A DNA stretch of 64,000 nucleotides from a virus (IMGVR_UViG_2718217859_000011:1-64000); one strand, 5' to 3'; numbered from the stretch's first letter, positions 1-51,233 are shown. Numbers and translations are program-made. Notes: a model not told the origin generated them from the sequence alone.

Positions 1-588
1 TTACGTAACGTCAAACGCTCGAATTGATCCCAAATCCTCCAGTGTATTTAACGCATCTTTCATCTCACGCTGACGCTGATAAATCTCATCGTTGCGATCG
101 ACCTGCGCCTGCGCCATCGCTGCAGCCAGCCCCTCAAGTTCCAGCATCGACAGTTTCACCTTCTGATTATCAGCGTCACCCCACACCATAACATCCCGTG
201 CAGTGTAGGATTTCGCCGATATCACCACCGGATAAAGACGGGCTAGTGAGTCGGGGCCTGCGTTCCAGGTGTGACCGTTCCATTCGAACGTGAACGACAG
301 TGCTTCCTGTTCTGTACGCCATGCCTCAATTTCCCGCCTTTTGGCATCCTTTGCCGCTGCAATAAGTTCAGGCGTGACAGTGAACGGGGCGATTTCGCCC
401 CATTTCCCGCTTTGCAGCTCCTGCCAGACATGCTGGCCTGTCGGGGCCATATCATCCTGTATGGCAGTATACAGGGCGAACTCCGTTTCACCTTCAAATA
501 ACACCTCGCAGTCAACCGCACCATTTTCAAGATAATGTGCGTTTCTGATACCTTTCACCGCTCTGATTTTCATGCCTGATTTCCTCAT
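1..588 (-). CDS. tfa: tail fiber assembly protein (Tfa-like)
   Basis: 195-aa ORF directly downstream of the side tail fiber gene on the same strand, as in lambda stf-tfa; likely true start at internal Met (MKIRAVKG, ~573). Confidence 0.6.
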   Translation of the reverse strand: MRKSGMKIRAVKGIRNAHYLENGAVDCEVLFEGETEFALYTAIQDDMAPTGQHVWQELQSGKWGEIAPFTVTPELIAAAKDAKRREIEAWRTEQEALSFTFEWNGHTWNAGPDSLARLYPVVISAKSYTARDVMVWGDADNQKVKLSMLELEGLAAAMAQAQVDRNDEIYQRQREMKDALNTLEDLGSIRAFDVT

Positions 589-2684
589 TACTCAATGCGT
601 ACAAAAAGACCGATAAAGCCACGCTGAGTACCATAATTGTTACCCAGGCCCGAAAGCGCCGTGTAACGACCGGGGAAGTTGTATTCACCGGCACCGCCAA
701 TCACAACCTGCGGTGAGGATGCGTATGTCCCTGTATCACTAACCTGTGCACTCATGGCCAGAGGACCAAGACGGGAACCCGGCACAGTATCACCGAGTCC
801 CAGAGAAGCATTTTCACCAAAACTTTCTCCCTGATATACCGCCATAATCGGCACACCGACGGCCGGGTATTGGTAATATGAGAACGGACCATTACCGGCG
901 GTTGAGGACATCAGATATGCCAGGGAGTTGCCGTCATACACAATAAGGCTTGATGTTGCATTCCAGCTGTTACCACTGTAGCGATAACGCATACAATGTA
1001 TGCTGTGCTCATCCTCGTAATACTGGTTGTAGTACAGCAGCGTTTTGAATTTACGCGCCGTGTCTGATTCGTCGTTATCAGACGGTGACCACATCACATC
1101 AATGATACCGTTAAATTTCGTGGTCCCCTTCAGCAGCGTGGAGGAGTCCGCAATACTGACCGCATAACGCCCCGGGGTGACTGTCTGCAGCCATATAACG
1201 AAATCAGCCTGTCCGTTAAATGACAGAGCTTCGGCGCTGGTGAATGCCTGTCCAAACCCATACATCCCGGACAGGGCCAGCCTGCCCGGTGTGCGGTCAC
1301 GGATATCACTCTGGGGTTCCATCGTCGCAGCCGCGTTCAGCTCAAGCTCCGTGCGCATGGCTTCAGCCGTGTCATGCGCCAGTAATGCGCGGGCCTTCTC
1401 TGACAGCGGAGACAGTGAGGCATTCCCGTCCGTATTGAAGTACAGAAGATTATCTGCCCGTTGCGTCAGTGCGCTGATTGCCGTTAAGACGTCATTAAGC
1501 GGTTGTTTGCCTGCCAGCGCGTTTGTGATTGTCGTCGCAAAGTTCGGGTCATTGCCCAGCGCCGCTGCCAGCTCGTTCAGGGTGTCCAGAACTTCCGGCG
1601 ATGAGCCAACCAGCGCAGCAAGCAGTTTGCGCACAAACGCTGCGTTCGCTGCTTCCAGACCGGCGGCATCATCCGGTGGGGTTGGGGTGGTTGGGGTGCC
1701 GGTGAAGGCCGGGCTGTCCAGTGGCGCTTTTGTTTTCGTTTCGTCCATGACGGCTTTGACAGCCTTTGGCGTGGCAGCCAGTTCATCGCTGTCGTTGTCC
1801 GTATCACTACACAGTTGCACCAGACCTTTTTCTGTCGTGCTGGCATTTGTTGCATTCAGGTCATCAACTATCTGCTGCGCCTCATCCCTGTACTGTTTCG
1901 CTTCCTGCGCATTGTCTGCACCTGCATCCTGGCTGTCTTTAGCCTGTCGGGCGTATTCGGCAGCGTTATTTTCATGCCCGAGTGCAGCATTTGCTGCATT
2001 TTCCGCGCTGGTTGCAGCTGATGATGCGGCATTATGATAAAGGCGGGCACGTTCGGCGGCATCGACTGATTCATCCCGCGATGTGCCTGATGACTGTGCG
2101 CTGTTTTCTGCCTCACCCGCAAAACGTTCCGCATCATCACGGGCCGTTGCGGTTGTCGTCACATCCTGTGCCGTCTGCTGTGCGTTTCCGGCTGCAGCTT
2201 CGGCGCTCTGCTGTGTCTGATTTTTTAGCTCTTCTGCCTCATCCTTACTAACCGCCGCAGATGTTGCTGCATTGATTGCATCATCAGCAGCTGTTTCTGC
2301 TCTCTCCCTGTCACTGACCACCTGCTCAGACAAGCGAAAAACGGTATTTATCATTTCCTCAAAACGCTTCATTACCTCAGGGCGTAAATCACCCTCCTTT
2401 GGTGCATCCAGAAAAGCATTCAGCGTATCCGGCTCATCTGTCGGTGCAACATAAATTTCCCCCGCCTTTACAGGAGGATGCCCTGAGCGGGACAAAAATA
2501 CATCATAAAATCCCGGCTCAGCATTAATAGTATACCCACCATCACTTCCCGTAAGACAGGTTGCCACAATATTAACCACAACTGTCGGACTGGTTCTTCT
2601 GGCACGCAATTCAATCGCACAGTTTACGACAGGCTCACCCGCTCCGTCCTTCAGGACACCTGAAATCTTTACTGCCATATTCAC
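588..2684 (-). CDS. stf: side tail fiber protein
   Basis: 698-aa ORF; N-terminus MAVKISGVLKDG... and Ala/Ser-rich repeat region recalled as lambda Stf-like; lies after lom as in lambda. Confidence 0.85.
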   Translation of the reverse strand: MNMAVKISGVLKDGAGEPVVNCAIELRARRTSPTVVVNIVATCLTGSDGGYTINAEPGFYDVFLSRSGHPPVKAGEIYVAPTDEPDTLNAFLDAPKEGDLRPEVMKRFEEMINTVFRLSEQVVSDRERAETAADDAINAATSAAVSKDEAEELKNQTQQSAEAAAGNAQQTAQDVTTTATARDDAERFAGEAENSAQSSGTSRDESVDAAERARLYHNAASSAATSAENAANAALGHENNAAEYARQAKDSQDAGADNAQEAKQYRDEAQQIVDDLNATNASTTEKGLVQLCSDTDNDSDELAATPKAVKAVMDETKTKAPLDSPAFTGTPTTPTPPDDAAGLEAANAAFVRKLLAALVGSSPEVLDTLNELAAALGNDPNFATTITNALAGKQPLNDVLTAISALTQRADNLLYFNTDGNASLSPLSEKARALLAHDTAEAMRTELELNAAATMEPQSDIRDRTPGRLALSGMYGFGQAFTSAEALSFNGQADFVIWLQTVTPGRYAVSIADSSTLLKGTTKFNGIIDVMWSPSDNDESDTARKFKTLLYYNQYYEDEHSIHCMRYRYSGNSWNATSSLIVYDGNSLAYLMSSTAGNGPFSYYQYPAVGVPIMAVYQGESFGENASLGLGDTVPGSRLGPLAMSAQVSDTGTYASSPQVVIGGAGEYNFPGRYTALSGLGNNYGTQRGFIGLFVRIE

Positions 2685-2742
2685 CCCACAAAAAAGCCCG
2701 CCTGAACCGGCGGGCTGTCATAACACTGTGTTACCTGACTAA

Positions 2743-3342
2743 TCAGAATTTATAACCGACACCCACGATGAAACCGTCAGTGCGCCAGTCGCCACTGCCG
2801 GAGCCTTCATAAGCAATATCAATGGCCACGGATTCGGTCGGGTTAAACTGCACGCCAGCTCCCCACGCCAGAGACGTGTTGCTGTGGCGACCGTCATCAC
2901 TTCCGGTCAGCACATCGTGCGTTTTCCCCTTATTGTCAGTTACGCGGAGATAATCCCCGGAGAAAGTCGACACACGGCTGTAAGCCACACCCGCCATCGC
3001 ATACGCGCTGAACCATTCATTCACGCGCACAGACGGCCCCGCCATTACGCTGAACCAGCGGTTACGAACGGAATCTTCATGCCAGCGGGTATCACTGTAA
3101 CGGGTCAGCTGGCGATTCTTGTCTCCTGCATAGCTGAATGACGTCACCAGCCCCAGCGTGTCCGTAAATTCATAACGGTATTTCACGTTAATGCCCTTCA
3201 GGTCATCGTTTCCGGGCATATCAGTATGGGACTGAAGATACCCGCCGCTTAGTGTGGACTGATGCTCTGCTGCACTCGCTGGCGTACCAGCGGCGACCAG
3301 CCAGACTACTGCAGACAGAATAACAGCACATAATTTACGCAT
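2743..3342 (-). CDS. lom: outer membrane protein, Lom/Ail/OmpX family
   Basis: 199 aa with signal peptide (MRKLCAVILSAVVWLVAAGTPASA) and C-terminal aromatic residue typical of beta-barrels; between J and stf as in lambda. Confidence 0.8.
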   Translation of the reverse strand: MRKLCAVILSAVVWLVAAGTPASAAEHQSTLSGGYLQSHTDMPGNDDLKGINVKYRYEFTDTLGLVTSFSYAGDKNRQLTRYSDTRWHEDSVRNRWFSVMAGPSVRVNEWFSAYAMAGVAYSRVSTFSGDYLRVTDNKGKTHDVLTGSDDGRHSNTSLAWGAGVQFNPTESVAIDIAYEGSGSGDWRTDGFIVGVGYKF

Positions 3343-3409: not shown

Positions 3410-6400
3410 TCAGCTAATCGTGATGCCTGCAGTGGCTTTCTTCATCACCACAACCAGCAAATCGCTGATACTTGCTGTGGGATACCAGTTATTTACCAGC
3501 CATGCTGACACCGAAAACTCCAGTGTCATGTGACCATGACCAGCCGGCATATCAATAACACCACTGTAAATCAGCGTATTATCCAGCGCGGTACGGTTAT
3601 AAATTTCAGCACCGTTTTTCCGCACTATCAGACGGCATGAGGAGTAAATATCAGTATGCTCTTTCTCATGTTTAGCGCCGCTGAATGCCACCGCCGGAAT
3701 AACAATCTGCCGGTCAAACGGCTGATCGTCATAAACCCTGACGGTAATGGTCCCTGATGGCCACCGTTCCGGTGCACGGGAGTCCCGGGGGAAAGCTTTG
3801 CCCACTGTTTTAACGAGATCGCCTTCAATCTGGTTGGCGGACAGTTTTCCCAGAACCCGACAGTTCTCGTTAATCGTGACGTTGTTGAGCGTCCCGGAGT
3901 TCGCATTCACGTTACCGCTGATATCGGCATTTTTCGCCGTCAGCCGCCCGTCCGGTGTCAGGGAAAATACCGGCGGATTGCCGCCGCTGGTAATGGTGGG
4001 AGCCGTCAGGCGTTTCAGGAACACGTCGTTCATGAATATCTGATCGCCCTGACCAACAAACATCGGCTTTGTGTTGCCATTCGCAGGATTAATCATCGCA
4101 ATCCTGTCTGCCGCCAGCAGCACCTGACTCTGCATACCTGCTGGCGTATTCTCAATACCGGCACCGATACCCGCAATATAAAGGCGTCCGTCCTTCATCT
4201 GTTGCAGCTTCACAGCCCACATGCTGTTCAGATTATTATTTGTATCAACCTGAACTTTCTGTATCTGCTGGATTGCCGCACTCTGATTTTCCAGTTTTTT
4301 ATTGACGGTCTGCGTGATTTCATTGCTGACATTCGTAATGGACGTCCTGATTTCAGCCAGGTCCGGCGCAAGCTGACCGTTATCAATCTGCGTCCACAAC
4401 TCCTGGGCCAGATGTGTTTTCCCGATTTCTCCTCTGAAAAAATCCAGGTAACCTTCCGCATCATCGCTCGCCCGACCGACAGCCTCCACGAATGCCGATT
4501 TGCCAATGGTGTTCACACTGCGAACGTAAAAATAATAATCATGGCCCGGTTTGATATTGATACTGGCGGCTATCCAGTACAGCGCCGTACCAAGATAGCG
4601 GGCTGTGGTTTCAACCTGCCTGATATCCGCAATCCGTTTTTCCGAGAACCAGAACTCAAACTGTACCGTCGGGTCATAAACCGCAAGATGTGGCGTGGCG
4701 GTTATCTGAAAATAGCCCGGCGTCAGCTCAATCCGCGACGGCGCTGCCGGTGCGGCAATCCGGAACGATACCGACGCCGGATCGCCCTGCTGCCCCCACG
4801 CATTTACTGCCCGGACTGTCAGCCTGTAGTTCCCCAGAGCCAGTTGTGTGAAGCGGTAAGTGGTTTCCGTCGTCCGGGCCGTGCTGACCAGCCGCTCACG
4901 GCCGTCATCCGCTGCCACGGTCAGGCGAAGCAGGAAGCTCACGCCCTTCACCACCTTCGGCGTGTCCCAGCGGGCCAGCACCTGGTATTCCCCGCTGTCT
5001 GCGGTGACTTCTGCGGTCAGGTGCTGCACCGCTGGCGGCGTGACACCATTTACCGTGCCGCTCTGGTCGCCGTCAAAGTGCGCCCCGTTATCCACGATGG
5101 CCTCTTTTTCCGGTACATGCTGCACGGCGGTGATGGCATACGTGCCGTCGTCGTTCTCACGGATACTCACGCAGCGGAACAGGCGCTGGCGCAACGTCGG
5201 CAGCTTCAGCCCCCATACGCTGTATTCAGCAACGCCGTCAGGAACACGGCTCACTTTCACCTTCACGCCGTCGGTGACGGACTGAACCTCCACGCTGACC
5301 GGACTCCCCTGCCCGTCAACCAGGCTTATCAGCGTGGTGCCGGAAGATGGCAGCGTGATTTCACGGTCGAGCGTCAGCGTCCGGGTCTGGCTGTTTACCG
5401 CCAGCACGCGCCCGCCGGTGCGGATACCGGCATAGTCATCATCGCAGATTTCAATGACATCGCCCGGTACATGGCGAAGCCCTTCGGCACCCACGCTGAA
5501 GTCCACGGTCTGCGTTTCCAGCAGTTCTGTTTTAATCAGCCACAGCCCGGCGCGGTGTGCCTGCCCCCGGCTGGTACAGCCAAAAGCATCCATCTTCGTG
5601 ACGTTACGACCGTAACGGGCAATGGCCTGCGTGTCCTCCACAAGCTCTGTCGCCGTCTCCCAGCCGTTATTCGGGTCAATCCAGTTCACCTCAACGGCAT
5701 TATGGCGGTCCTTCAGGGCGCTGAAGCTGTAGCGGAACGGCGCACCATCAACCGGCATCACCACATTACTGCGGTTATAGGTCCACACCTTATCCGACGG
5801 TCGGTCCTGCACGAACGTCAGCGTCTGCCCGTTCCATACCGGCATACAGCGCATCGCAGAGCAGAAATCACTGAGCACATCCCACGCCTTGCGCTGTGTG
5901 GTCAGGTACGCATTACAGGTGATGCGCGGCTCCGTGCCGCCAAAACCGTCCGGCACCGACTGATCGCAATGCTGGCCGATGACATACAGCGCCCATTTGT
6001 CCACATCCGCCGCACCAAGACGTTTCCCCATGCCGTAGCGCGGATGGGTCAGCATATCCCACAGACACCAGGCCATGTTGTTGCTGTATGCTGGCTTAAA
6101 CGTTCCGTCCCAGATACCGCTGTATTGCCGCGTCTGCGGGTTATAGTTCGACGGCACCTGCAGAATGCGCCCGCGCAGATGATAATTACGGCTCACCTGC
6201 TGGCTGCCGAACTGCTCCGAATCCACCTGCACGCCGACCAGTGCCGTGTTCGGGTAGCACTGTTTCACATCGATGATTTCGGTGTATGACGACCAGAGCG
6301 TTTTGTTCTGCAGCTGGTCTGTGGTGCTGTCCGGCGTCATCCTGCGCATCCGTATATTGAACGGGCGCGGCGGCAGGTTACCCACCACCACCGAGGCCAG

Positions 6401-34914: not shown

Positions 34915-35310
34915 TTACCGAGTTGCTAATTTGCAACTCGCTTTTTCGTACTTACTGATAGTGATCTCGACCTTACCTTCCGGGATAACCGGTCCCCACT
35001 CCACCAGCATTCTTTTCACCTGACTGTCGTCTTCCCACACCCCCGCGTGGGTCAGGGCGTCAAACAGCGCCTTGTTATAGTTGTCCAGATCGCGGATCCG
35101 GTTATCCGGAGGAAACAACACGATCTCCACTGAAGCAGGTGCCGACGTTGGTTTCGGCAGACGACGTAACTGCTCAACTATTGCTGCGCACGCCGCGCTC
35201 TGGAATTTTCGCCCCGCCGCGCTTATCAGGCTCTTACCAGCAAACGCCCCTTTGTTGGGGTGTCGCCAGTACGTGTTCACGCTGGGCGGGAAAGGCAGTA
35301 TTAGCTTCAT
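34915..35310 (-). CDS. RusA-family resolvase, second copy
   Basis: 131 aa; NTYWRH...DNRIRDLDNY...DALT...DDSQ motifs; paralogue of 32031..32405. Confidence 0.8.
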   Translation of the reverse strand: MKLILPFPPSVNTYWRHPNKGAFAGKSLISAAGRKFQSAACAAIVEQLRRLPKPTSAPASVEIVLFPPDNRIRDLDNYNKALFDALTHAGVWEDDSQVKRMLVEWGPVIPEGKVEITISKYEKASCKLATR

Positions 35311-35633
35311 ACTTTCAGGCCCCTCTCATGTAACCAGTGGGTTGCACGCAGCCTGGCGTTTTCCTCACCGGCAAGCAGTGAGCGGATAATCCCGACCGCC
35401 TCGCTGTCGTCGTCCTTCATCGCAGTATGAAGCGTTATCCCCCGGGCCACGCCACGCTTTATCGTGATGACGCCTTTTTTCTCCAGTGCGCGAAGATGCT
35501 CCACCGCTGCATTCACTGAACGGTATCCCAGCATGGTTGCCACCTCCTGATTGGTTGGCGGGAAGCCACGTTCTTGCTGGTAAGAAATCAGCATATCCAG
35601 CACCTGCTGCTGACATTGAGTTAACGTCGTCAT
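35307..35633 (-). CDS. LexA N-terminal DNA-binding-domain paralogue lacking the S24 peptidase domain
   Basis: MTTLTQCQQQVLDMLISYQQERGFPPTNQEVATMLGYRSVNAAVEHLRALEKKGVI aligns to recalled LexA residues 1-70; only ~45 aa follow; start overlaps upstream stop (TGATG). Confidence 0.6.
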   Translation of the reverse strand: MTTLTQCQQQVLDMLISYQQERGFPPTNQEVATMLGYRSVNAAVEHLRALEKKGVITIKRGVARGITLHTAMKDDDSEAVGIIRSLLAGEENARLRATHWLHERGLKV

Positions 35634-36127
35634 TAAGCCCCCACGTAATTCCCTGACAGATACCATTCATCACCCGATACAGCGCGCTTGCTGCTTTTCC
35701 GTAAGCACCGCTCACGACGCGCCAGAAAATTGTTTCGTTCTGGCTGGGAGTGGCTTTCACGGAATGCCTCCATCCACACCGTTGCAGCTCGACGGAATAA
35801 GCTCCTAGACTCCAGTTCTTCAGCCTGGCGGGTCAGGCACAAAATCACCCGGGGGTCGTTAGTGCCGACATAGAAATTGCGCACAGGTCTGGTTTCACGA
35901 ACAGATTGTGGTTCCGGCTCCTGCGCTCTCTCAGTCAGGCGCGGGAAATGTCTGCGTGTATCTCCTTCACAACGGTGAGCCACACGCCCACTCTGACGTA
36001 ACTTGCTTGCTGACTGCAGAACGCGCTGCCGTGAGTAACCAGCAAAAGCATCCGCAATGTCTCCGGAAGTACACCCCGGATGGGCTTCAATGAATTTCTG
36101 AACTTCATTCAAAAGACTCATAATCAC
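35633..36127 (-). CDS. hypothetical protein, possibly PerC-like regulator
   Basis: 164 aa; C-terminal segment ESRSLFRRAATVWMEAF...RRERCLRK loosely resembles PerC/Pch family. Confidence 0.35.
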   Translation of the reverse strand: MIMSLLNEVQKFIEAHPGCTSGDIADAFAGYSRQRVLQSASKLRQSGRVAHRCEGDTRRHFPRLTERAQEPEPQSVRETRPVRNFYVGTNDPRVILCLTRQAEELESRSLFRRAATVWMEAFRESHSQPERNNFLARRERCLRKSSKRAVSGDEWYLSGNYVGA

Positions 36128-36720
36128 CCCCTGAATCCTGCCGGGATCTGGCTGTAGTCCACGTTGTCGTAACTGGCTTTGAAGTACGGGTCCTCGCGTC
36201 TGGCTGCAGATACTGCAGGAACTTCCCAGGATTCTTCGAAATGACGATCCGGACCAAAGAACGTGACAGCCTGTTTCACAAATTGTGTGCCGCTGTTACC
36301 CATCGCAGATACCCAGCCCGCGTAGCGTTTCACACCTTCCAGCATGGTTTCGGGGTTTACCCCCTCATTCAAACGGGCTTTCCAGGCTTTGAAGGCTGCA
36401 GATTTTAAATTGCCACCAGCACGTTTGGGATAGGCCAGCCATGCCTGCTCAAACTCCGGAGAGTATTCCGGTCGGTTTGAACGAACTCGCACAGACTCAT
36501 CAGCAGATGCACCAACAGCTATTGGTTCATTGACTGGTTCTTTGACTGGTTCAAAAGAGTGACTGGTTCTGGGTGAATCTCCTGCACTACCCCCTGGTGC
36601 AACTCCTGCACTACCTGGTGAATTTGCTGCACCAGATAGTGAATTATTTGCACTACCCCCTAGTGAATCTCCTGCACCATCAAGATGAAGGAGATAGATA
36701 TTACTTGTGTGGGGTAGTGA
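36124..36720 (-). pseudogene. 5'-truncated ORF remnant (unknown lambdoid gene) cut at the Mu-like junction
   Basis: Frame stays open for 76 codons upstream of the tracked GTG start (36492) with no start codon, ending two codons inside Mu-like DNA; Gly/Ser/Ala/Pro-rich repeats then a C-terminal domain. Confidence 0.4.
36531..36681. repeat. tandem direct repeats (3x TGACTGGTTC; ~5x 21-24-bp units)
   Basis: CATTGACTGGTTC / TTTGACTGGTTC / GAGTGACTGGTTC followed by GGTGAATCTCCTGCACTACCCCCT-like units. Confidence 0.6.
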
Positions 36721-36723
36721 TCA

Positions 36724-36859
36724 ATTCTGGGCGGACTTAGTGCAGCCTGGTAGAACCAGCAAGCCTTGTGTGGCGCGGGGTGTGGTGATTTAGTGTGATT
36801 CTGGGCGGATTTGTGAGAAATGACCAAAAACGCTTTTTTTTGCGCTTTTTTCTGGGCGC
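36724..36859 (+). promoter_or_regulatory. putative transposase end-binding repeats (three TTCTGGGCG motifs)
   Basis: TTCTGGGCGG at ~36725 and ~36799, TTCTGGGCGC at ~36850, within 140 bp of the inferred left end; spacing resembles Mu L1-L3. Confidence 0.35.
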
Positions 36860-37019
36860 TTTTGATCTGGTTCTGCTACAAACTTAACGGGTTTTAAATG
36901 CTTTTAAAAAAGTGTTTTATCCTTACCCGTTTTCCTCAATTTGTTCTCATCTGTGTGTTCGGTTTTGTTGTGGTTATTGCTGATTAGCTAACAGCACACG
37001 CCCCGCCAAAACGAGGCGC

Positions 37020-37682
37020 TTATGCTGATTTCTTGTTTACAGGCTTAGTTTCTTGCTCCGGTGTGACGGGAACGCGATCACCTGGTGTTCCAGCACAGAA
37101 AATAGCTTTGGCGCGGCGCAAAATCTCTTTGTCATTTTCCTCATCGCCAGCTAATGCCATGCAAACAGCGTCTTTAAGCGATTGCCTGATGTTCAGGCTT
37201 TGAATGGCCTTCCTTTGTTCCTCAAGTTCGCTATCGGCTTGCTTGGTTTGCCTGGTGGGTTGCTGTAGGCGTTCAAGGACTCCTTTGATGCCAATACAAC
37301 ACAGCATATCAATAAGACGCTCTCTATCTTCTGGAGTAGCTCGCCTTAGTATTTCATCGACAATACTTGTGTTTGGGCGGTTAACGTCTTCTGTAGGCAC
37401 CTTTTTTTCTATTATTGGATCACGATCGCCCTCACCGTAGACCAGCCATTCCAGTGATACATTCTCTAATTTTGCTATCGTAGCGACCACATTTAGGCCG
37501 GGAGTGGTGCCTTTCTCAAAGTAGTTATTTATGGTCGAGTACGGCAACCCCCAGTCTGAGGTGGCTTTACGCAGACTCCTAGTGCCAACCAGTTGCTTGA
37601 TTCTGTCCTGAATGCTTTCTTTTCTATTCTGAGAAAAGGAAAAATCATCGGCGGTTTGTTTACTCACTTTCTTTCCTCTCAA
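37020..37682 (-). CDS. putative Mu-like repressor (c-like)
   Basis: 220 aa, transcribed leftward as first gene of the element, divergent from ner; HTH-like segment LRKATSDWGLPYSTINNYFEKG; assignment mostly by position. Confidence 0.5.
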   Translation of the reverse strand: MRGKKVSKQTADDFSFSQNRKESIQDRIKQLVGTRSLRKATSDWGLPYSTINNYFEKGTTPGLNVVATIAKLENVSLEWLVYGEGDRDPIIEKKVPTEDVNRPNTSIVDEILRRATPEDRERLIDMLCCIGIKGVLERLQQPTRQTKQADSELEEQRKAIQSLNIRQSLKDAVCMALAGDEENDKEILRRAKAIFCAGTPGDRVPVTPEQETKPVNKKSA

Positions 37683-37787
37683 TCTATTGATTTACAACAC
37701 ATTTCTACAAAAAGACTTTCTTTTCACCAAAGCAAGAAAAGAAAGCTTGTAATTTTCTATTTATGGATCAATACTTATATCCGAAGG

Positions 37788-37835: not shown

Positions 37836-38072
37836 ATGATGGTTAGAAATGAAGTAATGAACAAAGACTGGCACCGCGAGTACATCGTTGCCGCTGTGCA
37901 CACCAAAGGTTTTACATTGCGTGAACTTTCTGAACGCGCTGGTCTAAAAAAAGACTCTTTAAAAAATGCACTGTATCGCTCATGCCCTAAATATGAACGC
38001 ATCATAGCCGATGCTATTGGTGTGGAACCTGCGGAGATCTGGCCAAGCCGGTATGCCAGTAAGGCGGCGTAA
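37836..38072 (+). CDS. ner: DNA-binding protein Ner
   Basis: 78 aa; DWHREYIVAAV...SLKNAL...IIADAIGVEPAEIWPSRY recalled as Mu Ner-like. Confidence 0.8.
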   Translation: MMVRNEVMNKDWHREYIVAAVHTKGFTLRELSERAGLKKDSLKNALYRSCPKYERIIADAIGVEPAEIWPSRYASKAA

Positions 38073-40114
38073 TGTTTTATTCAGCCAATGAGCTGGCCGG
38101 TCTTCCTGGTTTGCCCGGTACAGTTCAGGGGGTGCGCTGGACGCTCAATCGGATCACAGATACGCACCCGGAATGGAAGCGCAAGCGCGAAGGCACCAAA
38201 GCATTCGAGTATCACATCGACTGCCTGCCCGCTGAAGCGCAGAAAGTTTTACGTAAGCGCCTGACCCATCAGGTTCTGGAAGATGCACAACTGCCCGCCG
38301 TGGTTGAGCAGAAGGCAGTTAAAAACGTCGCCGTTCGCGATGAACTGGAAGTGATGGTCAAATGCCCGGAACTGGCATTACGCGAAGTCCAGGCACTGAC
38401 CGACAAGCAAAAGGCCATTGCTGATGCGCGGATATTGCTGGCTACTGAAGTGCATAAACTGCGTGAATACGCCGGAATGACCAGGAAGGCCGCGTTAAAG
38501 CACATCGTTGATGGTGTGCGCATGGGGGCGTTGCCTGACCGCATTATCGAAGCAGCGAATACTGCAAATGCACGTCAGGGAAAGCGAACCGGTGTCAGCA
38601 CCGGCAGCCTGGATAGCTGGTACTCCAGCTGGGTGATGGCGCGCGGTGATGCCAATCAGTTACTGGCGTTACTGGCTCCCGGTCATCATAAGGGAACACC
38701 GTGGGAGCAGGTCTGGTGGTTGAGCGATTTCTTTATGTTCTATCGCTCATGGAAGCGCCCGACCGTTGAATATGCGTATCGCGAGTTTTCAGCCTGGTGG
38801 CATGAGAAGCACGCGAACGATGCGGGAATGCTGGCGGCACTGCCTTCCGTTCACGCAGTAAGACGGGTATTAAGCAGTGTCCCGGTGATTGTTAAGGAGC
38901 GTTTCCGCTCCACCGGTTCAGCCTGGCGTTCGCTCAATCCCTTTGTGCGACGCGACTGGAGCACATTACCGGTTAATGCGGTATGGGTCGGGGATGGTCA
39001 CTGTATGAAACTGATGGCATTCAGCCCTGCCACCGGGAATACATTCCGGCCAGAAGTGACGCTGGTTATGGATGCAGGACAACGCTTTATTGTGGGCTGG
39101 TCGCTGTCCCTGTCGGAGAACGTGGTGGCCGTTGCTGATGCATTGCGTCATGGCATGTCACAACACGGAATACCGCTGATTTATTACTCCGATAACGGGG
39201 GCGGTGAAAAAAACCGGGTGCTTGATGCCGATATTACCGGGATTTTGCCCCGGCTGGGTGTGGAACATCACACGGGGATACCAGGTAACCCGCAGGGGCG
39301 CGGGGTAATAGAACGGGCAAACAAAGGAATACCCAAAGATGTGGCTCTGAGTTTCCAGACGTACTGCTCAAAAAATGCAGACAAGGAAACGGTGATGATG
39401 CAGCAACGCATCACACAGTCAGCCATTAAGGCCACCCACAAAGGGAAGGAGCTGACAAAGCGGCAGGTTAAAGCAATGGGAGAAGTCCCCACCTTTGAGC
39501 AATTGATGGCCGCAATAGAGCTGGAGGTAAAACGGTATAACAACCGCCCACACAGCAGCCTTCCCCGCAAAGAGGATGGCGAACATTACAGCCCGGCAGC
39601 GTATCGCCGGAAACTGATAAAAGAGCAGAAAGCTGAAATCGACATGCTGTCGCCGGAAGAACTTCACGAAATGTTCCGACCGGAAAGCATCTGCACAGTG
39701 CGACGCGGTGAAGTGGTGTTATTCAGAAACATCTATTTCTCCACAGAACTGGCAGCAGAGCACGGAAATGAAGTCAGGGTTTGTTACGACATTCACGACG
39801 CAAACAGCGTGATTGTCAGGCGGATGGACGGTTCTTATATCTGCGATGCCATCTGGAACGGTAACAAGGTTGATGCGTTCCCTAAAGCTGTTATCGAACA
39901 ACAGCAGGAGAAACGCACCAGAGGCCGCATTGCACGGGCCGCGCAGAAAATCGAAGAGGCTAAACGCGAGCTTACTCCGGCTATTACGCAGAAACCTGAC
40001 TTTAATTTTGGATTTGGTCTGGAGCGCCCGGAGAAAAAGGAAAAAGAAGAACTTTATTTATTCGCATCTGAACGCGAACGCAATTTAAAGAAAAACGGCA
40101 CAAACAACCGTTAA
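38072..40114 (+). CDS. A: Mu-type DDE transposase A
   Basis: 680-aa ORF after ner; size and organisation as MuA. Confidence 0.9.
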   Translation: MFYSANELAGLPGLPGTVQGVRWTLNRITDTHPEWKRKREGTKAFEYHIDCLPAEAQKVLRKRLTHQVLEDAQLPAVVEQKAVKNVAVRDELEVMVKCPELALREVQALTDKQKAIADARILLATEVHKLREYAGMTRKAALKHIVDGVRMGALPDRIIEAANTANARQGKRTGVSTGSLDSWYSSWVMARGDANQLLALLAPGHHKGTPWEQVWWLSDFFMFYRSWKRPTVEYAYREFSAWWHEKHANDAGMLAALPSVHAVRRVLSSVPVIVKERFRSTGSAWRSLNPFVRRDWSTLPVNAVWVGDGHCMKLMAFSPATGNTFRPEVTLVMDAGQRFIVGWSLSLSENVVAVADALRHGMSQHGIPLIYYSDNGGGEKNRVLDADITGILPRLGVEHHTGIPGNPQGRGVIERANKGIPKDVALSFQTYCSKNADKETVMMQQRITQSAIKATHKGKELTKRQVKAMGEVPTFEQLMAAIELEVKRYNNRPHSSLPRKEDGEHYSPAAYRRKLIKEQKAEIDMLSPEELHEMFRPESICTVRRGEVVLFRNIYFSTELAAEHGNEVRVCYDIHDANSVIVRRMDGSYICDAIWNGNKVDAFPKAVIEQQQEKRTRGRIARAAQKIEEAKRELTPAITQKPDFNFGFGLERPEKKEKEELYLFASERERNLKKNGTNNR

Positions 40115-47233: not shown

Positions 47234-47501
47234 CCTTGCCGGTATCGTGAATGTCTGGCTGTGTCTCGCCATTGTGCTGGGGTTGTTTGTGTATCGCCGT
47301 CACGGTGCGGCGCATAAACCGATGATTACCTGGCTGGCGTACTGGCTGATGCTCGGCTACATCATCATCCCGTTCCGCTGGCTGTCAGGTACATACACAC
47401 ACTCCAGCTGGCTGGTTGTGGCGCTGAATCTGGTGTTCTGTGCGCTTATCGTGTGGGCGCACGGGAATTTGTCAAAAATCCTTTCGTTACTGCGGAGGTG
47501 A
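47217..47501 (+). CDS. membrane protein (second holin/antiholin candidate)
   Basis: 94 aa, three hydrophobic segments, overlaps neighbours. Confidence 0.4.
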   Translation: MEMESSLAGIVNVWLCLAIVLGLFVYRRHGAAHKPMITWLAYWLMLGYIIIPFRWLSGTYTHSSWLVVALNLVFCALIVWAHGNLSKILSLLRR

Positions 47502-47503
47502 AT

Positions 47504-47881
47504 ATGTCGGAAAAATTCCGTTTCAGTCAACGTAGCGAGAAAAATCTGGCTGGTGTAAAACCACAACTGGTGGCGGTTGTACGCCGTGCGCTGGCGTTGT
47601 CGGACGTCGATTTTGGTATTACCGAAGGTTTACGCACGAAAGAACGTCAGAAACAACTTGTCGCTGAAGGCAAGAGCCAGACCATGAACAGCCGTCACCT
47701 TACTGGCGATGCTGTTGATGTCGTGGCTTACGTTGGTGGCACCATTTCATGGGACTGGCCGTTATACGAAAAAATCGCCCGAGCCTTTAAACAGGCTGCC
47801 GCAGAGCTGGGTGTCGCCATCGAATGGGGCGGAGACTGGAAAACGCTGAAAGACGGGCCTCATTTCCAGTTAAAACGCTGA
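47504..47881 (+). CDS. endolysin, peptidase M15-like (L-Ala-D-Glu peptidase type)
   Basis: 125 aa from MSEKFRFS; SRHLTGDAVDV and GPHFQL motifs consistent with zinc peptidase M15. Confidence 0.7.
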   Translation: MSEKFRFSQRSEKNLAGVKPQLVAVVRRALALSDVDFGITEGLRTKERQKQLVAEGKSQTMNSRHLTGDAVDVVAYVGGTISWDWPLYEKIARAFKQAAAELGVAIEWGGDWKTLKDGPHFQLKR

Positions 47882-48097: not shown

Positions 48098-48304
48098 GTG
48101 AGCGTTATCAGATTTACAGAATACACAGGTTCAGGAGGTGCAGGCGCTGTCATGGTGCTCGCTGAACGCATCACCCATTTTTACCGTCAGCACGGTACAC
48201 ATGATGGCACTGTCATTGAACTGGATACCGGGAAAAACGTGTTCGTTCTTGAAAATCCCGACGAAGTTCAGCGCAGGATTGAACAGGCTCAGAAGGACAC
48301 TTAA
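48098..48304 (+). CDS. hypothetical protein
   Basis: 68-aa ORF. Confidence 0.3.
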   Translation: MSVIRFTEYTGSGGAGAVMVLAERITHFYRQHGTHDGTVIELDTGKNVFVLENPDEVQRRIEQAQKDT

Positions 48305-48804
48305 TGGCGTGGTCACAGGATATCAGGGACAAAGTCCGTAACGGGTACATCTTTGACCAGCTTCCGCTGGATATCGTCGCCATGAAGTACGCCGTGCCGC
48401 ACGATACCGCGCGGCGCTGGAAAACGCAGGCGATGAAGAACGGTGACGACTGGGACAAGCTGCGGGCCGCTCACGCGCTCGCCGGTGACGGGCTGGAAAG
48501 TGTCGCCCGCACCGTGCTTATCAGTCTGGTGGTGAAGTGTCAGACGACGCTTGAACGGCTGAACCAGAACCCGGACATCCCGCCGCAGGAGTCCGTCGAA
48601 CTGCTGGCGAGTCTGTCTGACAGTCTCAGTAAGGCGGTGGCCAGCAGTAAAAAAATCCTGCCGGAAACCGACCGGCTCGCCACGGCACTGGAAGTGGTGC
48701 AGCGGCTCGGCGCGTTCATCAAGGAGCGTCACCCGGCACAGTATGCCGCGTTCCTTGAGGTGCTCGAAGGCTTCGCTAAAGAGCTTGAGGATAATTTCAG
48801 TTAA
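48304..48804 (+). CDS. putative terminase small subunit (Mu gp27-like)
   Basis: 166 aa preceding terminase large subunit; assignment by position and recalled resemblance. Confidence 0.5.
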   Translation: MAWSQDIRDKVRNGYIFDQLPLDIVAMKYAVPHDTARRWKTQAMKNGDDWDKLRAAHALAGDGLESVARTVLISLVVKCQTTLERLNQNPDIPPQESVELLASLSDSLSKAVASSKKILPETDRLATALEVVQRLGAFIKERHPAQYAAFLEVLEGFAKELEDNFS

Positions 48805-48850
48805 CCACAGCGGCCCGGTTTTCCGGGCCGTCTGATATTCGGGATTTGTA

Positions 48851-49591
48851 ATGCAAAAACAGATTATTGGTAACGCAACGTTGTATTGCGGTGATGTTCT
48901 TGATGTGCTGCCAGCGTTATCCGAACGTTTTGATGCCGTCATTACCGACCCGCCTTACAGCAGTGGTGGCACACATAAATCAGACCGCAGCATAGCCCCT
49001 TCGGACAAGTATGTCGGTCACACCCGGTATGCCGAGTTCACCGGCGATAACCGCGACCAGCGCAGCTGGGCGTTCTGGTGTTCCATGTGGATTTCTCATG
49101 CATTGCACAGGCTGAATCCCGGCGGTTATTTCATGGTGTTCAGTGACTGGCGACAACTACCGGCGCTTACCGATGCATTTCAGGCCGGTGGTGTGCTGTG
49201 GCGTGGTCTGGTTGTCTGGGATAAAACGCAGGCTTCCCGTGCGCCACACACCGGCTATTTCCGGCATCAGGCCGAGTATGTGGTCTGGGGCAGCAACGGA
49301 AAACTCGACAAATGCCCGCACGGTGGCCCGTTCCCTGGTGTGATTACGCAGCGTGTTGTCCCGTCTGAAAAACTGCACATGACCGCAAAGCCAGTTCAGC
49401 TGATGGCCGAGCTGGTTAAACCGCTGGCACCGGATGCGCACGTCCTCGATCCGTTTATGGGAAGCGGCACCACCGCCATCCCTGTACTTGCCCGTGGCGG
49501 ACGGTTTACCGGCATTGAAATGACTAACCAGTATTTTGATATCGCCTGCGCACGTATCGAAAAAGCGCAGGCAGAAGCAGCGCAGGTGTGA
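48851..49591 (+). CDS. DNA methyltransferase, beta-class (DPPY ... FMGSGTT)
   Basis: 246 aa; TDPPY at residues ~32-36 and FMGSGTT near C-terminus; no restriction partner. Confidence 0.85.
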   Translation: MQKQIIGNATLYCGDVLDVLPALSERFDAVITDPPYSSGGTHKSDRSIAPSDKYVGHTRYAEFTGDNRDQRSWAFWCSMWISHALHRLNPGGYFMVFSDWRQLPALTDAFQAGGVLWRGLVVWDKTQASRAPHTGYFRHQAEYVVWGSNGKLDKCPHGGPFPGVITQRVVPSEKLHMTAKPVQLMAELVKPLAPDAHVLDPFMGSGTTAIPVLARGGRFTGIEMTNQYFDIACARIEKAQAEAAQV

Positions 49592-49592
49592 C

Positions 49593-51233
49593 GTGGCAAA
49601 ACGTAAACTTTCCATTAAAGAGTTTCAGAGAAGCTTACAGGAGTACATCGCCAACCTCCGCCAGACCATTGAGGCTGAATGTCTGGGGTTTGATGTTAAC
49701 CCGCAGGCCACACAGGCCCGCCGGGCGGCAGTCTGCGACCCGGTGACGGGCTACGATTATTTTGTCGAAAACTATTTCCCGCACTACGTCCGCAACCCGG
49801 CAAAAAGTGAGCTGCATAAATACCTGTTCAGCCGTCTGCCACAGGTTGTGGCAAGCCCGGACCCGGAGAACGACGCCATCGCCGCGCCCCGTGGTGAAGC
49901 AAAATCCACGCTGGTGACTCAGCTGTTTACCCTGTGGACCATTATCCGGGCCATTAAACATTATCCGGTCATCATTATGGACAGTATCGACCAGGCTTAT
50001 CCGATGCTGGAAGCCATCAAGGCTGAACTGGAGTTTAACCCCCGTTTAAAAAACGATTTCCCGGAGGTGTGCGGGCAGGGTCGCGTCTGGCGTATGGGGA
50101 CCATCGTCACAGCCAACAATATCAAGGTGACCGTTGCCGGTAGTGGTAAAAAGCTGCGTGGTCTGCGCCACGGCCCGTACCGTCCTGACCTGGTTATCCT
50201 CGACGATATCGAGAACGACGAGATGGTGCGTAACCCGGAGCAGCGCGACAAGCTGCATGACTGGCTCACCAAAACCGTGATGCCACTGGGTGAGGCTGGC
50301 GGTAAAACCGATATTATTTATATCGGAACCATCCTGCATTACGACTCCGTACTGTCGCGCACGCTGAATAACCCGATGTGGAAAACGGCCCGTTTTAAGG
50401 CCGTCATTCAGTGGCCTGCCAATATGAAGTTGTGGGACGAGTGGGAAGAACTCATCCGCAACAAACAGCCGGAAGCGGCGGAGGCACTTTACCGGCAGAA
50501 CGAAGCCGAGATGCTCGCCGGGTCGGTGGTGTCATGGGCGGCGCGTCCCCTGCTGGCACTGATGAAAATCCGTGTCCGTGACGGTCACGACACCTTTGAT
50601 TCTGAATACCAGAACGACCCGGTCAGCGGTGAAGATGCGCTGTTTGCGGGCTGCATTAAGTTCTGGGTTAACCGTCTTGATGAATGGGTGTTCTACGGCG
50701 CTGTTGACCCCAGTCTCGGGAAGAAAAACAAAAACCGCGACCCGTCGGCCATTCTCGTGGGGGGCTTTAACCGCTTTACCGGCATTCTGGATGTGGTTGA
50801 AGCCGATATCCGCCGACGTCTGCCAAATAAACTTATCGAAGACGTGATCAAGTATCAGCGGGAATACCACTGTCTGTGCTGGTCGTTTGAGTCCGTTCAG
50901 TTTCAGGAGTTTCTGCGTACCGTGCTGGTTGAGCGTTCGGCGGCGCTGGGCGTACCGGTTCCGGCGCTGCCGGTCATCCCTCTGGAGGATAAGGCGCTGC
51001 GTATTGAGTCCCTTCAGCCGCATATGGCCAACGGCCTGATTCGCATCAGTCCCGCACATCAGACTCTGATTGACCAGCTGCGCCACTACCCCAAAGCCGA
51101 CCATGATGACGGCCCGGACTGTCTGCACATGCTGTGGACGCTGGCAGTGTCGCGCAGCGCAAAATTTCAGATACACACCCCACGCAGCACCGGGCGTGAC
51201 CGTGGCGGGCGTTTTGGTTCAGGAGGATGGTAA
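49593..51233 (+). CDS. terminase large subunit (Mu gp28-like)
   Basis: 546 aa with GTG start overlapping the MTase stop; immediately precedes portal. Confidence 0.85.
   Translation: MAKRKLSIKEFQRSLQEYIANLRQTIEAECLGFDVNPQATQARRAAVCDPVTGYDYFVENYFPHYVRNPAKSELHKYLFSRLPQVVASPDPENDAIAAPRGEAKSTLVTQLFTLWTIIRAIKHYPVIIMDSIDQAYPMLEAIKAELEFNPRLKNDFPEVCGQGRVWRMGTIVTANNIKVTVAGSGKKLRGLRHGPYRPDLVILDDIENDEMVRNPEQRDKLHDWLTKTVMPLGEAGGKTDIIYIGTILHYDSVLSRTLNNPMWKTARFKAVIQWPANMKLWDEWEELIRNKQPEAAEALYRQNEAEMLAGSVVSWAARPLLALMKIRVRDGHDTFDSEYQNDPVSGEDALFAGCIKFWVNRLDEWVFYGAVDPSLGKKNKNRDPSAILVGGFNRFTGILDVVEADIRRRLPNKLIEDVIKYQREYHCLCWSFESVQFQEFLRTVLVERSAALGVPVPALPVIPLEDKALRIESLQPHMANGLIRISPAHQTLIDQLRHYPKADHDDGPDCLHMLWTLAVSRSAKFQIHTPRSTGRDRGGRFGSGGW

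What the first reader, a model, noticed from the sequence alone, without database searches (positions are those of the whole stretch)
48851..49591. Methyltransferase wedged between small and large terminase genes of the Mu-like phage
In Mu the two terminase subunit genes are adjacent (recalled). Here a 246-aa DPPY methylase lies between them, and the large terminase uses a GTG that overlaps the methylase stop, so it is translated within the packaging operon. This could be packaging-linked self-methylation as an anti-restriction strategy.
Basis: partly seen in the sequence, partly recalled or inferred. Interest (0 to 1): 0.45.

Follow-up and report, generated by a model that had tools for sequence, protein, structure and literature searches.

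The report
Optional DNA methylase cassette before terminase
A Mu-like prophage carries an optional, horizontally exchanged DNA adenine-methylase gene in a known variable slot just upstream of its large terminase gene; it most likely methylates progeny phage DNA late in infection to evade host restriction, which is an ordinary phage strategy.

Summary
The ORF is real: 48851..49591 (+), 246 aa, an intact beta-class amino-methyltransferase (DPPY before FMGSGTT). Pfam, PHROG, PADLOC and fold evidence agree. It lies between a DUF1804 gene and the large terminase of a transposable Mu-like prophage.

Two details in the finding are off:
- The terminase GTG (49593) starts one base after the methylase stop and does not overlap it.
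- The upstream gene holds the small-terminase position but is not a Mu gp27 homologue.

The gene is not core. Of 54 near-identical E. coli prophages, 35 carry it and 19 lack exactly this 743-bp cassette, with 7 bp in its place. The two forms are intermixed on the flanking-gene backbone.

Across 91 related loci the DUF1804-to-terminase gap runs from -10 to 2317 bp and holds more than ten unrelated cargo genes. Homologues sit in this slot in other Enterobacterales. In Salmonella they sit inside the lysis cassette. In P2-like phages they follow a Com-like regulator.

Best reading: a late-operon, orphan, probably N6-adenine methylase for anti-restriction. It stands in for Mu's Mom, since an E. coli copy of this prophage has no com-mom module. 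It is not required for packaging. It is a new member of a known kind, of low interest.

The parts
48304..48804 (+). DUF1804 gene (166 aa). It is the conserved DNA-binding-type protein that precedes the large terminase in D3112-like and this type of Mu-like phage. It is the presumed small-terminase analogue by position only.
   Evidence: Pfam PF08822 at 5.7e-53 and phrog_756 'DNA binding protein' at 6e-68. It is not in the Mu gp27 family.
48808..48834 (+). GC-rich stem-loop (GCGGCCCGG-TTTT-CCGGGCCGT) directly after the DUF1804 stop, followed by a T-rich tail without a clean T run. It is present in both methylase-carrying and methylase-lacking alleles. It is probably an intercistronic attenuator or RNA-stability hairpin.
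   Evidence: RNA fold of -22.3 kcal/mol. It is conserved in E. coli, Yersinia, Enterobacter and IMG/VR relatives, with a C-G to T-A compensatory pair in Yersinia. The simple terminator scan did not call it.
48840..49582 (+). The 743-bp variable cassette. It holds the methylase's own ribosome-binding region (GGGA, 6 nt before the ATG) and all but the last two codons and stop of the methylase. Empty alleles have the 7 nt TGTATAC in its place.
   Evidence: Junction alignment of the window, L001 and L010 (methylase present) against L008, L009 and L011 (absent). The 736-bp length difference appears in 19 E. coli genomes.
48851..49591 (+). Orphan beta-class DNA amino-methyltransferase, 246 aa, probably N6-adenine. 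Motif IV DPPY is at residues 33-36 and motif I FMGSGTT at about 202-208.
   Evidence: Thirty-eight homologues down to 56% identity keep DPPY, F-M-G-S, H-x-T-x-K-P and many other invariant residues.
49584..49595 (+). Terminase translation start region. The Shine-Dalgarno AGGTG (49584-49588) lies inside the last methylase codons. It is followed by the methylase stop TGA (49589-49591), one spacer base, and the terminase GTG (49593-49595). This stretch is shared by alleles with and without the methylase.
   Evidence: PGAP start positions.
49593..51233 (+). Large terminase subunit (546 aa from the GTG).
   Evidence: phrog_38 'terminase large subunit' at 3.5e-143. TIGR01630 at 2.4e-24. RefSeq annotates it as terL.

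Best explanation
The gene encodes an active, solitary (no partner nuclease) beta-class DNA methyltransferase, most likely N6-adenine specific. It is carried as an optional cargo cassette in a hypervariable slot between the DUF1804 gene and the large terminase gene of a transposable Mu-like prophage.

It has no detected promoter of its own. It is read as part of the Mor-dependent late transcript that runs from the lysis genes into the head genes. It has its own ribosome-binding site. Its last codons contain the terminase's ribosome-binding site, so ribosomes finishing the methylase stop 1 nt before the terminase start.

If made late, after replicative transposition has amplified the phage DNA, the enzyme would methylate its target sites on progeny genomes before headful packaging. 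Injected DNA would then resist restriction enzymes with overlapping specificity in the next host. That would make it the functional counterpart of Mu's Mom and of the Com-controlled adenine methylases of FluMu, Pnm1 and B3. An E. coli copy of this prophage lacks a com-mom module.

Shown here: the identity and fold of the enzyme, intact motifs under purifying selection, the operon context, the exact cassette boundaries, presence/absence among near-identical prophages, and mobility of the family among late-gene slots of temperate phages. Inferred: late expression, the adenine target, and the anti-restriction benefit. The recognition sequence is unknown.
For: - Enzyme identity: Pfam, PHROG and PADLOC hits. 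An AlphaFold model (pLDDT 84) matches M1.HpyAVI, CcrM and M.BceJIV at Foldseek E about 1e-14. Sequence matches to the same solved enzymes.
- Selection: 38 homologues from 93% down to 56% identity keep DPPY, FMGS, HxTxKP and about 60 invariant columns.
- Orphan status: the flanking genes are DUF1804 and terL, and no nuclease is adjacent.
- Operon context: all genes from about 44.1 to 63.2 kb are on the + strand. No promoter-like or terminator-like site was called near the gene. The terminase Shine-Dalgarno and the 1-nt spacer are seen.
- Optional cassette: 35 of 54 E. coli prophages carry it and 19 have TGTATAC instead. Carriers and non-carriers are intermixed by terL and DUF1804 identity. Its GC3 is 0.58 against 0.66-0.75 in the neighbouring genes.
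- Variable slot: in 91 loci the gap spans -10 to 2317 bp and holds unrelated cargo, including DUF6527, a DUF4145 protein, D3112 orf25 and membrane proteins. Regions of genomic plasticity are described for Pseudomonas Mu-like phages (PMC4378225).
- Family context: homologues occupy the same slot in Yersinia, Enterobacter, Intestinirhabdus and Buttiauxella. They sit in the lysis cassette in Salmonella. They follow a Com-like Zn ribbon in the P2-like phages Chuche, Delftia and KS5.
- Precedent: Mu-like prophages replace Mom with adenine methylases that confer restriction resistance (PMC3299994).
Against: - No experimental data: neither the methylation activity nor the recognition sequence is known. 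N4-cytosine activity cannot be excluded for PF01555 enzymes.
- Hin1523 and Hia5 were silent in their native hosts even after induction (PMC3299994), so expression cannot be assumed.
- Loss of the gene in a third of E. coli copies shows that any benefit is conditional.
- The promoter scan covers only sigma-70 consensus sites. It would miss weak or activator-dependent promoters that could drive expression in the lysogen.
Confidence: 0.7

Rival explanations
1. Packaging control. Methylation of a packaging signal, or of the DNA being threaded, is needed for or regulates terminase action, as P1 Dam methylation licenses pac cleavage. On this view the gene sits between the packaging genes for that reason.
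For: The gene directly abuts terL in at least six diverged lineages: E. coli, Yersinia, L026, L028, L030, and L088, whose terminase is only 34% identical. It shares the terminase ribosome-binding region. Dam-dependent packaging in P1 is established knowledge and is cited among phage Dam functions in PMC5005818.
Against: Nineteen of 54 E. coli prophages lack the gene, although in the copies checked DUF1804 is 98-99% and terL 96-98% identical in DNA. In Enterobacter two ORFs separate it from terL. In Salmonella it is in the lysis cassette and in P2-like phages elsewhere. Mu-type packaging starts at the left end of integrated copies (established knowledge), not near this locus.
Confidence: 0.05
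2. Lysogen-benefit cargo. The methylase is expressed from the prophage in the lysogen and changes host methylation, either for gene regulation or to protect the host chromosome and prophage.
For: This slot holds other cargo typical of lysogen-expressed morons, often on the opposite strand (D3112 orf25, a 159-187 aa ORF in Salmonella, a DUF4145 protein). Orphan methylases such as M.BceJIV and CcrM act as regulators (established knowledge).
Against: The gene is on the same strand as the late genes and inside their operon, downstream of a hairpin. No promoter-like site was called. It is coupled to terL. Prophage methylases are generally active only in the lytic phase (PMC5005818).
Confidence: 0.12
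3. Decaying passenger. The gene is an inactive remnant with no current function.
For: It is frequently absent. Truncated cluster members exist, of 112 and 227 aa. Hin1523 and Hia5 are silent in their native hosts.
Against: The ORF is full length in 35 E. coli genomes, and the exact protein is seen on 213 contigs. Catalytic and AdoMet-binding motifs are invariant across homologues down to 56% identity, which co-diverge with the phage backbone.
Confidence: 0.05
4. Relaxed or non-specific adenine methylase of the Hia5 / M.EcoGII functional type, giving broad rather than motif-specific protection.
For: The enzyme is compact at 246 aa. The stretches that would form the target-recognition region are short and modelled with low confidence (residues about 40-70 and 131-137). 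The best full-length structural neighbour is M1.HpyAVI, a small beta-class enzyme. Its relaxed specificity is from my own knowledge. Mu-like prophages are known to carry non-specific adenine methylases.
Against: No sequence comparison with Hia5 or M.EcoGII could be run here. The other close structural neighbours, CcrM and M.BceJIV, are sequence specific. The very strong conservation of residues 99-148 suggests a defined DNA-reading surface.
Confidence: 0.08

Closest known systems
Com-controlled N6_N4 methylases of P2-like temperate phages (Burkholderia phage KS5 gp20 with Com gp21; Escherichia phage Chuche; P2-like prophage of Delftia) and Bordetella phage BPP-1 Bpm
   Same: They belong to the same protein family, at 43-61% identity over the full length, with a similar size of about 250 aa and the same beta-class motifs. 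They are solitary enzymes embedded among late or structural genes of temperate phages. For KS5 the authors interpret the enzyme as protection from host restriction (PMC3091744).
   Different: Those genes follow a Com-like zinc-ribbon translational regulator. They lie in tail or terminal regions of P2-like phages. Here there is no Com, and the gene is inserted between DUF1804 and terL of a transposable phage and coupled to terL.
Mom-replacing adenine methylases of Mu-like prophages (Hin1523 of FluMu, Nma1821 of Pnm1, Hia5; B3 ORF48)
   Same: They are Mu-like transposable phages that carry a DPPY adenine methylase in place of Mom as a DNA-modification, anti-restriction function (PMC3299994). The proposed role is the same.
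   Different: Position and regulation differ: those sit at the mom position or behind Com. B3 ORF48 is a D12 (alpha-type) Dam-like enzyme with no detectable similarity to this protein (BLASTP E = 1.9; Pfam PF02086). Similarity to Hin1523 and Hia5 was not tested.
Solved beta-class amino-methyltransferases: M1.HpyAVI (5HFJ), CcrM (6PBD), M.BceJIV (8URK), M.MboIIA, M.RsrI
   Same: They share the fold and motif order. Foldseek gives E about 1e-14, with target-normalised TM-scores of 0.54 (CcrM), 0.71 (M.BceJIV) and 0.79 (M1.HpyAVI). phmmer gives E about 1e-14.
   Different: Identity is only about 22%. The NCBIfam CcrM and PRK13699 models score far below their cutoffs (51.6 against 830 and 76.6 against 244). 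Specificity therefore cannot be transferred.
Regions of genomic plasticity / morons in Pseudomonas Mu-like phages (D3112, DMS3, PaMx73)
   Same: Accessory genes sit at fixed inter-gene slots of an otherwise syntenic genome and differ between close relatives (PMC4378225). D3112 itself has an accessory gene, orf25, between its DUF1804 gene and terL.
   Different: No methylase was reported among that cargo (the word 'methyl' occurs 0 times in the paper). Classic morons carry their own promoter and terminator, and this cassette does not.

Membership tests
Beta-class DNA amino-methyltransferase (Pfam PF01555 N6_N4_Mtase) | Significant match to the family model above the curated cutoff | tested here: met
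   87.3 bits against a gathering score of 26.7, E = 1.9e-24. PADLOC MTase_II PDLC03321 matches over its full length at 1.9e-64.
Beta-class DNA amino-methyltransferase (Pfam PF01555 N6_N4_Mtase) | Motif order: catalytic motif IV (D/S-P-P-Y/F) lies N-terminal to AdoMet motif I (FxGxG) | tested here: met
   DPPY is at residues 33-36 and FMGSGTT at about 202-208. Both are invariant in 38 homologues.
Beta-class DNA amino-methyltransferase (Pfam PF01555 N6_N4_Mtase) | Rossmann-type methyltransferase fold superposable on solved beta-class enzymes | tested here: met
   The AlphaFold model has pLDDT 83.9 and pTM 0.84. Foldseek hits M1.HpyAVI, CcrM and M.BceJIV at E about 1e-14, with target-normalised TM-scores of 0.54-0.79.
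Beta-class DNA amino-methyltransferase (Pfam PF01555 N6_N4_Mtase) | Transfers methyl to N6 of adenine (rather than N4 of cytosine) at a defined DNA sequence | not testable with these tools
   DPPY is typical of N6-adenine enzymes (established knowledge). No assay or methylome is available.
Orphan (solitary) phage methyltransferase | No cognate restriction endonuclease gene adjacent | tested here: met
   The neighbours are DUF1804 and terL. Antisense ORFs have no Pfam match. RefSeq annotation agrees.
Accessory cassette / moron of a phage genome | Present or absent between otherwise near-identical genomes, at a precise site | tested here: met
   Thirty-five of 54 E. coli prophages carry it. Nineteen have 7 nt in place of 743 bp, with identical flanks. 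The two forms are intermixed on the backbone.
Accessory cassette / moron of a phage genome | Own promoter and terminator (classic moron definition) | tested here: not met
   No promoter-like or terminator-like site was called next to the gene, and it lies inside the late operon. The scan covers only consensus sigma-70 sites.
Com-controlled Mom-type DNA modification module of Mu-like phages | Located behind a Com zinc-ribbon regulator, at the right end or mom position | tested here: not met
   The upstream gene is DUF1804, 46 nt away. The right end of the E. coli copy has no com or mom. Relatives in P2-like phages do follow Com.
CcrM (NF050803) / PRK13699 (NF010253) / YhdJ-type (NF008572) equivalogs | Score at or above the NCBIfam curated cutoff | tested here: not met
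   51.6 against 830, 76.6 against 244, and 40.7 against 292.
Mu gp27 small terminase family (for the upstream gene 48304..48804) | Match to PF11985 Phage_Mu_Gp27, or profile similarity to Mu gp27 | tested here: not met
   The window protein matches only DUF1804. Mu gp27 and B3 ORF30 match PF11985. hhalign of the two families gives a probability of 4.7%. No solved small terminase was hit.

The most novel reading that the evidence does not exclude
The methylase is kept immediately 5' of the large terminase gene, sharing its ribosome-binding region, in at least six diverged lineages, one of which has a terminase only 34% identical. The novel reading is that this reflects a functional tie between methylation and packaging. 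Obligatory co-production with the terminase, or even physical association with it, would ensure DNA is modified as or just before it is encapsidated. A second possibility, which may hold alone or together with the first, is that the compact enzyme has very relaxed adenine specificity of the Hia5 / M.EcoGII type.
Probability: 0.07. Interest if true: 0.55.

Novelty: new member of a known kind. Interest (0 to 1): 0.2.

Why it matters
Little is at stake. Phage-borne orphan methylases as anti-restriction cargo are textbook, and the exact protein is already in public databases, annotated as a DNA methyltransferase.

What is modestly useful:
- It gives a clean natural pair of alleles, with and without the methylase, on the same prophage backbone in E. 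coli. That pair could be used to measure the host-range value of one phage methylase.
- It shows that the DUF1804-to-terminase junction is a cargo hotspot across Mu-like phages of Enterobacterales as well as Pseudomonas.
- It suggests that this lineage, which lacks com-mom in the one E. coli copy checked, solves the DNA-modification problem with a different enzyme at a different site.

Tried and rejected
1. 'Core gene of the lineage' is rejected: 19 of 54 E. coli prophages and several distant relatives lack the gene.
2. 'The terminase GTG overlaps the methylase stop' is rejected: the overlapping GTG (49588) is out of frame, and the real start is 49593.
3. 'The upstream gene is a Mu gp27-type small terminase' is rejected on Pfam and hhalign. 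A PDB profile search gave only noise.
4. Homology to the B3 ORF48 Dam-like methylase is rejected.
5. A simple deletion between direct repeats is rejected as the origin of the empty allele. The empty site carries 7 nt (TGTATAC) that are absent from the full allele, and no repeat flanks the cassette. Allele exchange through the conserved flanks fits better.
6. A megablast search of the phage collection found nothing, so no sequenced phage isolate is close at the DNA level.
7. Literature searches for DUF1804 plus methyltransferase, and for an E2348/69 Mu-like prophage methylase, found nothing.
8. The alignment-based scan of genome contigs failed for lack of a conserved stretch. The single-protein scan returned only 5 loci.
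9. Pfam scans of slot cargo from relatives mostly gave no family.
10. The target motif could not be inferred, because no characterised enzyme is close enough.

Full report
**Observation.** The ORF at 48851..49591 (+) exists as described. It runs from ATG to TGA and encodes 246 aa, with DPPY at residues 33-36.
- It is a well-supported DNA amino-methyltransferase. Pfam N6_N4_Mtase scores 87.3 bits against a cutoff of 26.7. PHROG_67 'DNA methyltransferase' gives 1e-54. A PADLOC Type II methyltransferase model matches over its full length at 2e-64.
- Catalytic motif IV (DPPY) precedes AdoMet motif I (FMGSGTT, about residues 202-208), which is the beta-class order.
- An AlphaFold model built on 38 homologues (pLDDT 84, pTM 0.84) superposes on the solved beta-class enzymes M1.HpyAVI, CcrM and M.BceJIV at Foldseek E about 1e-14. 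Sequence search of the PDB finds the same enzymes.
- Antisense ORFs over the gene have no family match.

**Two details in the finding need correction.**
- The terminase start does not overlap the methylase stop. The stop is TGA at 49589-49591. The in-frame GTG, used by RefSeq in every E. coli homologue, is at 49593-49595. The GTG at 49588 that overlaps the TGA is in another frame and opens a 52-aa ORF. The junction is still tight: the terminase Shine-Dalgarno (AGGTG, 49584-49588) lies inside the last methylase codons.
- The upstream 166-aa gene (48304..48804) is DUF1804 (PF08822). It is not the Mu gp27 family (PF11985), which Mu gp27 and B3 ORF30 do match. A profile-profile comparison of the two families gives a probability of 4.7%, and no solved small terminase is hit. 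It is therefore the small-terminase analogue by position only.

**Surroundings.**
- From about 37 kb to the window end lies a transposable Mu-like prophage. It has a CI-like repressor, a MuA-like transposase and Mor. It continues with holins and an M15 endolysin, then DUF1804, the methylase, the large terminase (phrog_38 at 3.5e-143), a Mu-type portal, MuF, G and so on.
- All of these genes are on the + strand. No promoter-like or terminator-like site was called next to the methylase.
- A stable GC-rich hairpin (48808-48834, -22.3 kcal/mol) follows the DUF1804 stop.

**Presence and absence in close relatives.**
- Fifty-four of 5,426 complete E. coli genomes hold this region at 95.9-98.9% identity.
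- Thirty-five of them carry the methylase. Nineteen lack precisely 736 bp, so DUF1804 is followed after 52 nt by terL.
- Junction alignment gives the boundaries. The flanks are shared up to ...CTGATATT (48839) and again from CAGGTGTGACGTGG (49583). Between them the full allele has 743 bp (48840-49582) and the empty allele has TGTATAC.
- The last two methylase codons and its stop (CAG GTG TGA) lie in the shared right flank, which is also the terminase ribosome-binding region. The hairpin lies in the shared left flank.
- No direct repeats flank the cassette, and the empty site has its own 7 nt. The two forms therefore look like alternative alleles exchanged through the conserved flanks, not a one-step insertion or deletion.
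- Carriers and non-carriers are intermixed by terL and DUF1804 DNA identity. For example, carrier L001 is closest to non-carrier L008, and non-carrier L011 is closest to carrier L022.
- The methylase has lower GC3 (0.58) than its neighbours (0.66-0.75).

**Wider relatives.**
- In sequenced phages, DUF1804 and terL are directly adjacent in RcapMu and RS138.
- They are separated by a 147-bp ORF in a Mannheimia phage, by an opposite-strand gene (orf25) in D3112, and by three small ORFs in a Klebsiella phage.
- In 91 loci with both genes (IMG/VR plus the others fetched) the gap runs from -10 to 2317 bp. It is under 60 bp in 11 loci, 60-299 bp in 29, 300-699 bp in 24, and 700 bp or more in 27. More than ten unrelated cargo families occur there, including DUF6527 and a DUF4145 protein.
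- This matches the 'regions of genomic plasticity' described for Pseudomonas Mu-like phages (PMC4378225).
- Methylase homologues occupy this same slot in several other lineages: Yersinia enterocolitica at 80% identity with the same 1-nt junction, and Enterobacter kobei at 74% with two extra ORFs before terL. Intestinirhabdus and Buttiauxella carry it at 79%, as do IMG/VR contigs L026, L028, L030 and L088 at 56-76%.
- Methylase identity falls roughly in step with DUF1804 and terL identity. This argues for long residence in the slot with repeated loss, as in Trabulsiella and L027.
- The family is not tied to the slot. In Salmonella Mu-like prophages a 61% homologue sits between holin and endolysin.
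- In the P2-like phages Chuche, a Delftia prophage and Burkholderia KS5 it follows a Com-like zinc-ribbon gene. Bordetella BPP-1 Bpm is 53% identical.

**Mechanism.** The best-supported reading has these parts.
- It is a solitary, probably N6-adenine methylase, transcribed with the late genes and translated from its own ribosome-binding site (GGGA, 6 nt before the ATG).
- Its termination is coupled to terminase initiation.
- It would methylate amplified phage DNA before headful packaging, so that the DNA resists restriction in the next host.
- The E. coli B1172 copy of the prophage ends right after the tail-fibre genes, with no com-mom module. This methylase is therefore the only modification enzyme seen in that copy.
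- Mu-like prophages are known to replace Mom with adenine methylases that confer broad restriction resistance (PMC3299994). B3 carries a Com-methylase pair amid its tail genes, although that enzyme is an unrelated D12-class protein.
- Shown here: identity, fold, conservation, operon context, cassette anatomy and distribution.
- Inferred: late expression, the adenine target and the anti-restriction benefit. The recognition sequence is unknown. The NCBIfam equivalogs for CcrM, PRK13699 and YhdJ all score far below their cutoffs.

**Rivals.**
- A packaging-control role of the P1 Dam type is made unlikely by the 19 non-carrier prophages. In the copies checked their DUF1804 and terL are 96-99% identical in DNA to those of carriers. 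The family's other positions argue the same way.
- A lysogen-expressed regulatory or protective role is possible but does not fit the strand, the operon position or the absence of a promoter call.
- A decaying pseudogene does not fit the invariant motifs across 38 homologues, nor the exact protein being seen on 213 contigs.
- Relaxed specificity of the Hia5 type is not excluded.

**Novelty and verdict.** The exact protein is already deposited and annotated as a DNA methyltransferase (ANP10404.1 and others). Orphan phage methylases and variable cargo slots are both well known. I found no paper describing this slot-and-enzyme combination. That makes it at most a new member of a known kind. Interest is low, at 0.2.

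Noticed in passing
window 28673-29731 (-): A second, unrelated-in-detail N6_N4 DNA methyltransferase of 351 aa (PF01555 at 1.9e-42; a PADLOC MTase_II model at 4e-154). It lies just downstream of the Q antiterminator of a neighbouring lambdoid prophage. It shares only the conserved motifs with the 246-aa enzyme. The window therefore has two prophages, each with its own late-operon methylase.
   Followed up: partly
window about 36500-37700: The left end of the Mu-like prophage (CI-like repressor at 37020-37682 on the - strand, transposase at 38072-40114) directly abuts early or nin-type genes of the lambdoid prophage: PerC-like at 35633-36127, RusA at 34915-35310, and KilA-N. The transposable phage therefore appears to have inserted into the other prophage. 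The exact ends and the target duplication were not mapped.
   Followed up: no
window 48808-48834; also L012 about 3960-3985, L013, L026, L027: A conserved GC-rich hairpin (GGCCCGG-loop-CCGGGCC) follows the DUF1804 stop. The loop varies, and Yersinia has a C-G to T-A compensatory pair. In Enterobacter the hairpin is followed by a T run. In L026 it sits after an inserted lipoprotein-like ORF, directly upstream of the methylase. It may be an attenuator that sets the ratio of DUF1804 to downstream genes.
   Followed up: partly
L014-L016 (Salmonella enterica contigs), 4001-4753: In a related Salmonella Mu-like prophage the 61%-identical methylase lies inside the lysis cassette, between a holin and the endolysin. 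Its starts and stops overlap both neighbours. The DUF1804-to-terL gap there holds other small ORFs, including one on the opposite strand.
   Followed up: partly
L010 (E. coli RM9088), 1-3050: IS66- and IS21-family elements have replaced everything upstream of the hairpin. The breakpoint lies within a few bases of the DUF1804 stop codon, so the prophage remnant begins with the methylase.
   Followed up: no
L008/L009 vs L011/window, lysis genes upstream of DUF1804 (window 47453-47881): Otherwise near-identical E. coli prophages carry either an M15 metallopeptidase endolysin (window, L001, L011) or a glycoside hydrolase 108 endolysin (L008, L009, and the Yersinia locus L012). This is a second module swap close to the methylase slot. 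The small ORF just before DUF1804 (window 48098-48304) also varies in length between copies.
   Followed up: no
L075 5978-6985 (-) and L091; L003/L085 etc.: Other cargo in the same slot includes an opposite-strand protein of about 263-335 aa with a DUF4145 domain and CxxC motifs, and a 109-aa DUF6527 protein present in nine loci. Their functions are unknown. They may be defence or anti-defence genes.
   Followed up: partly
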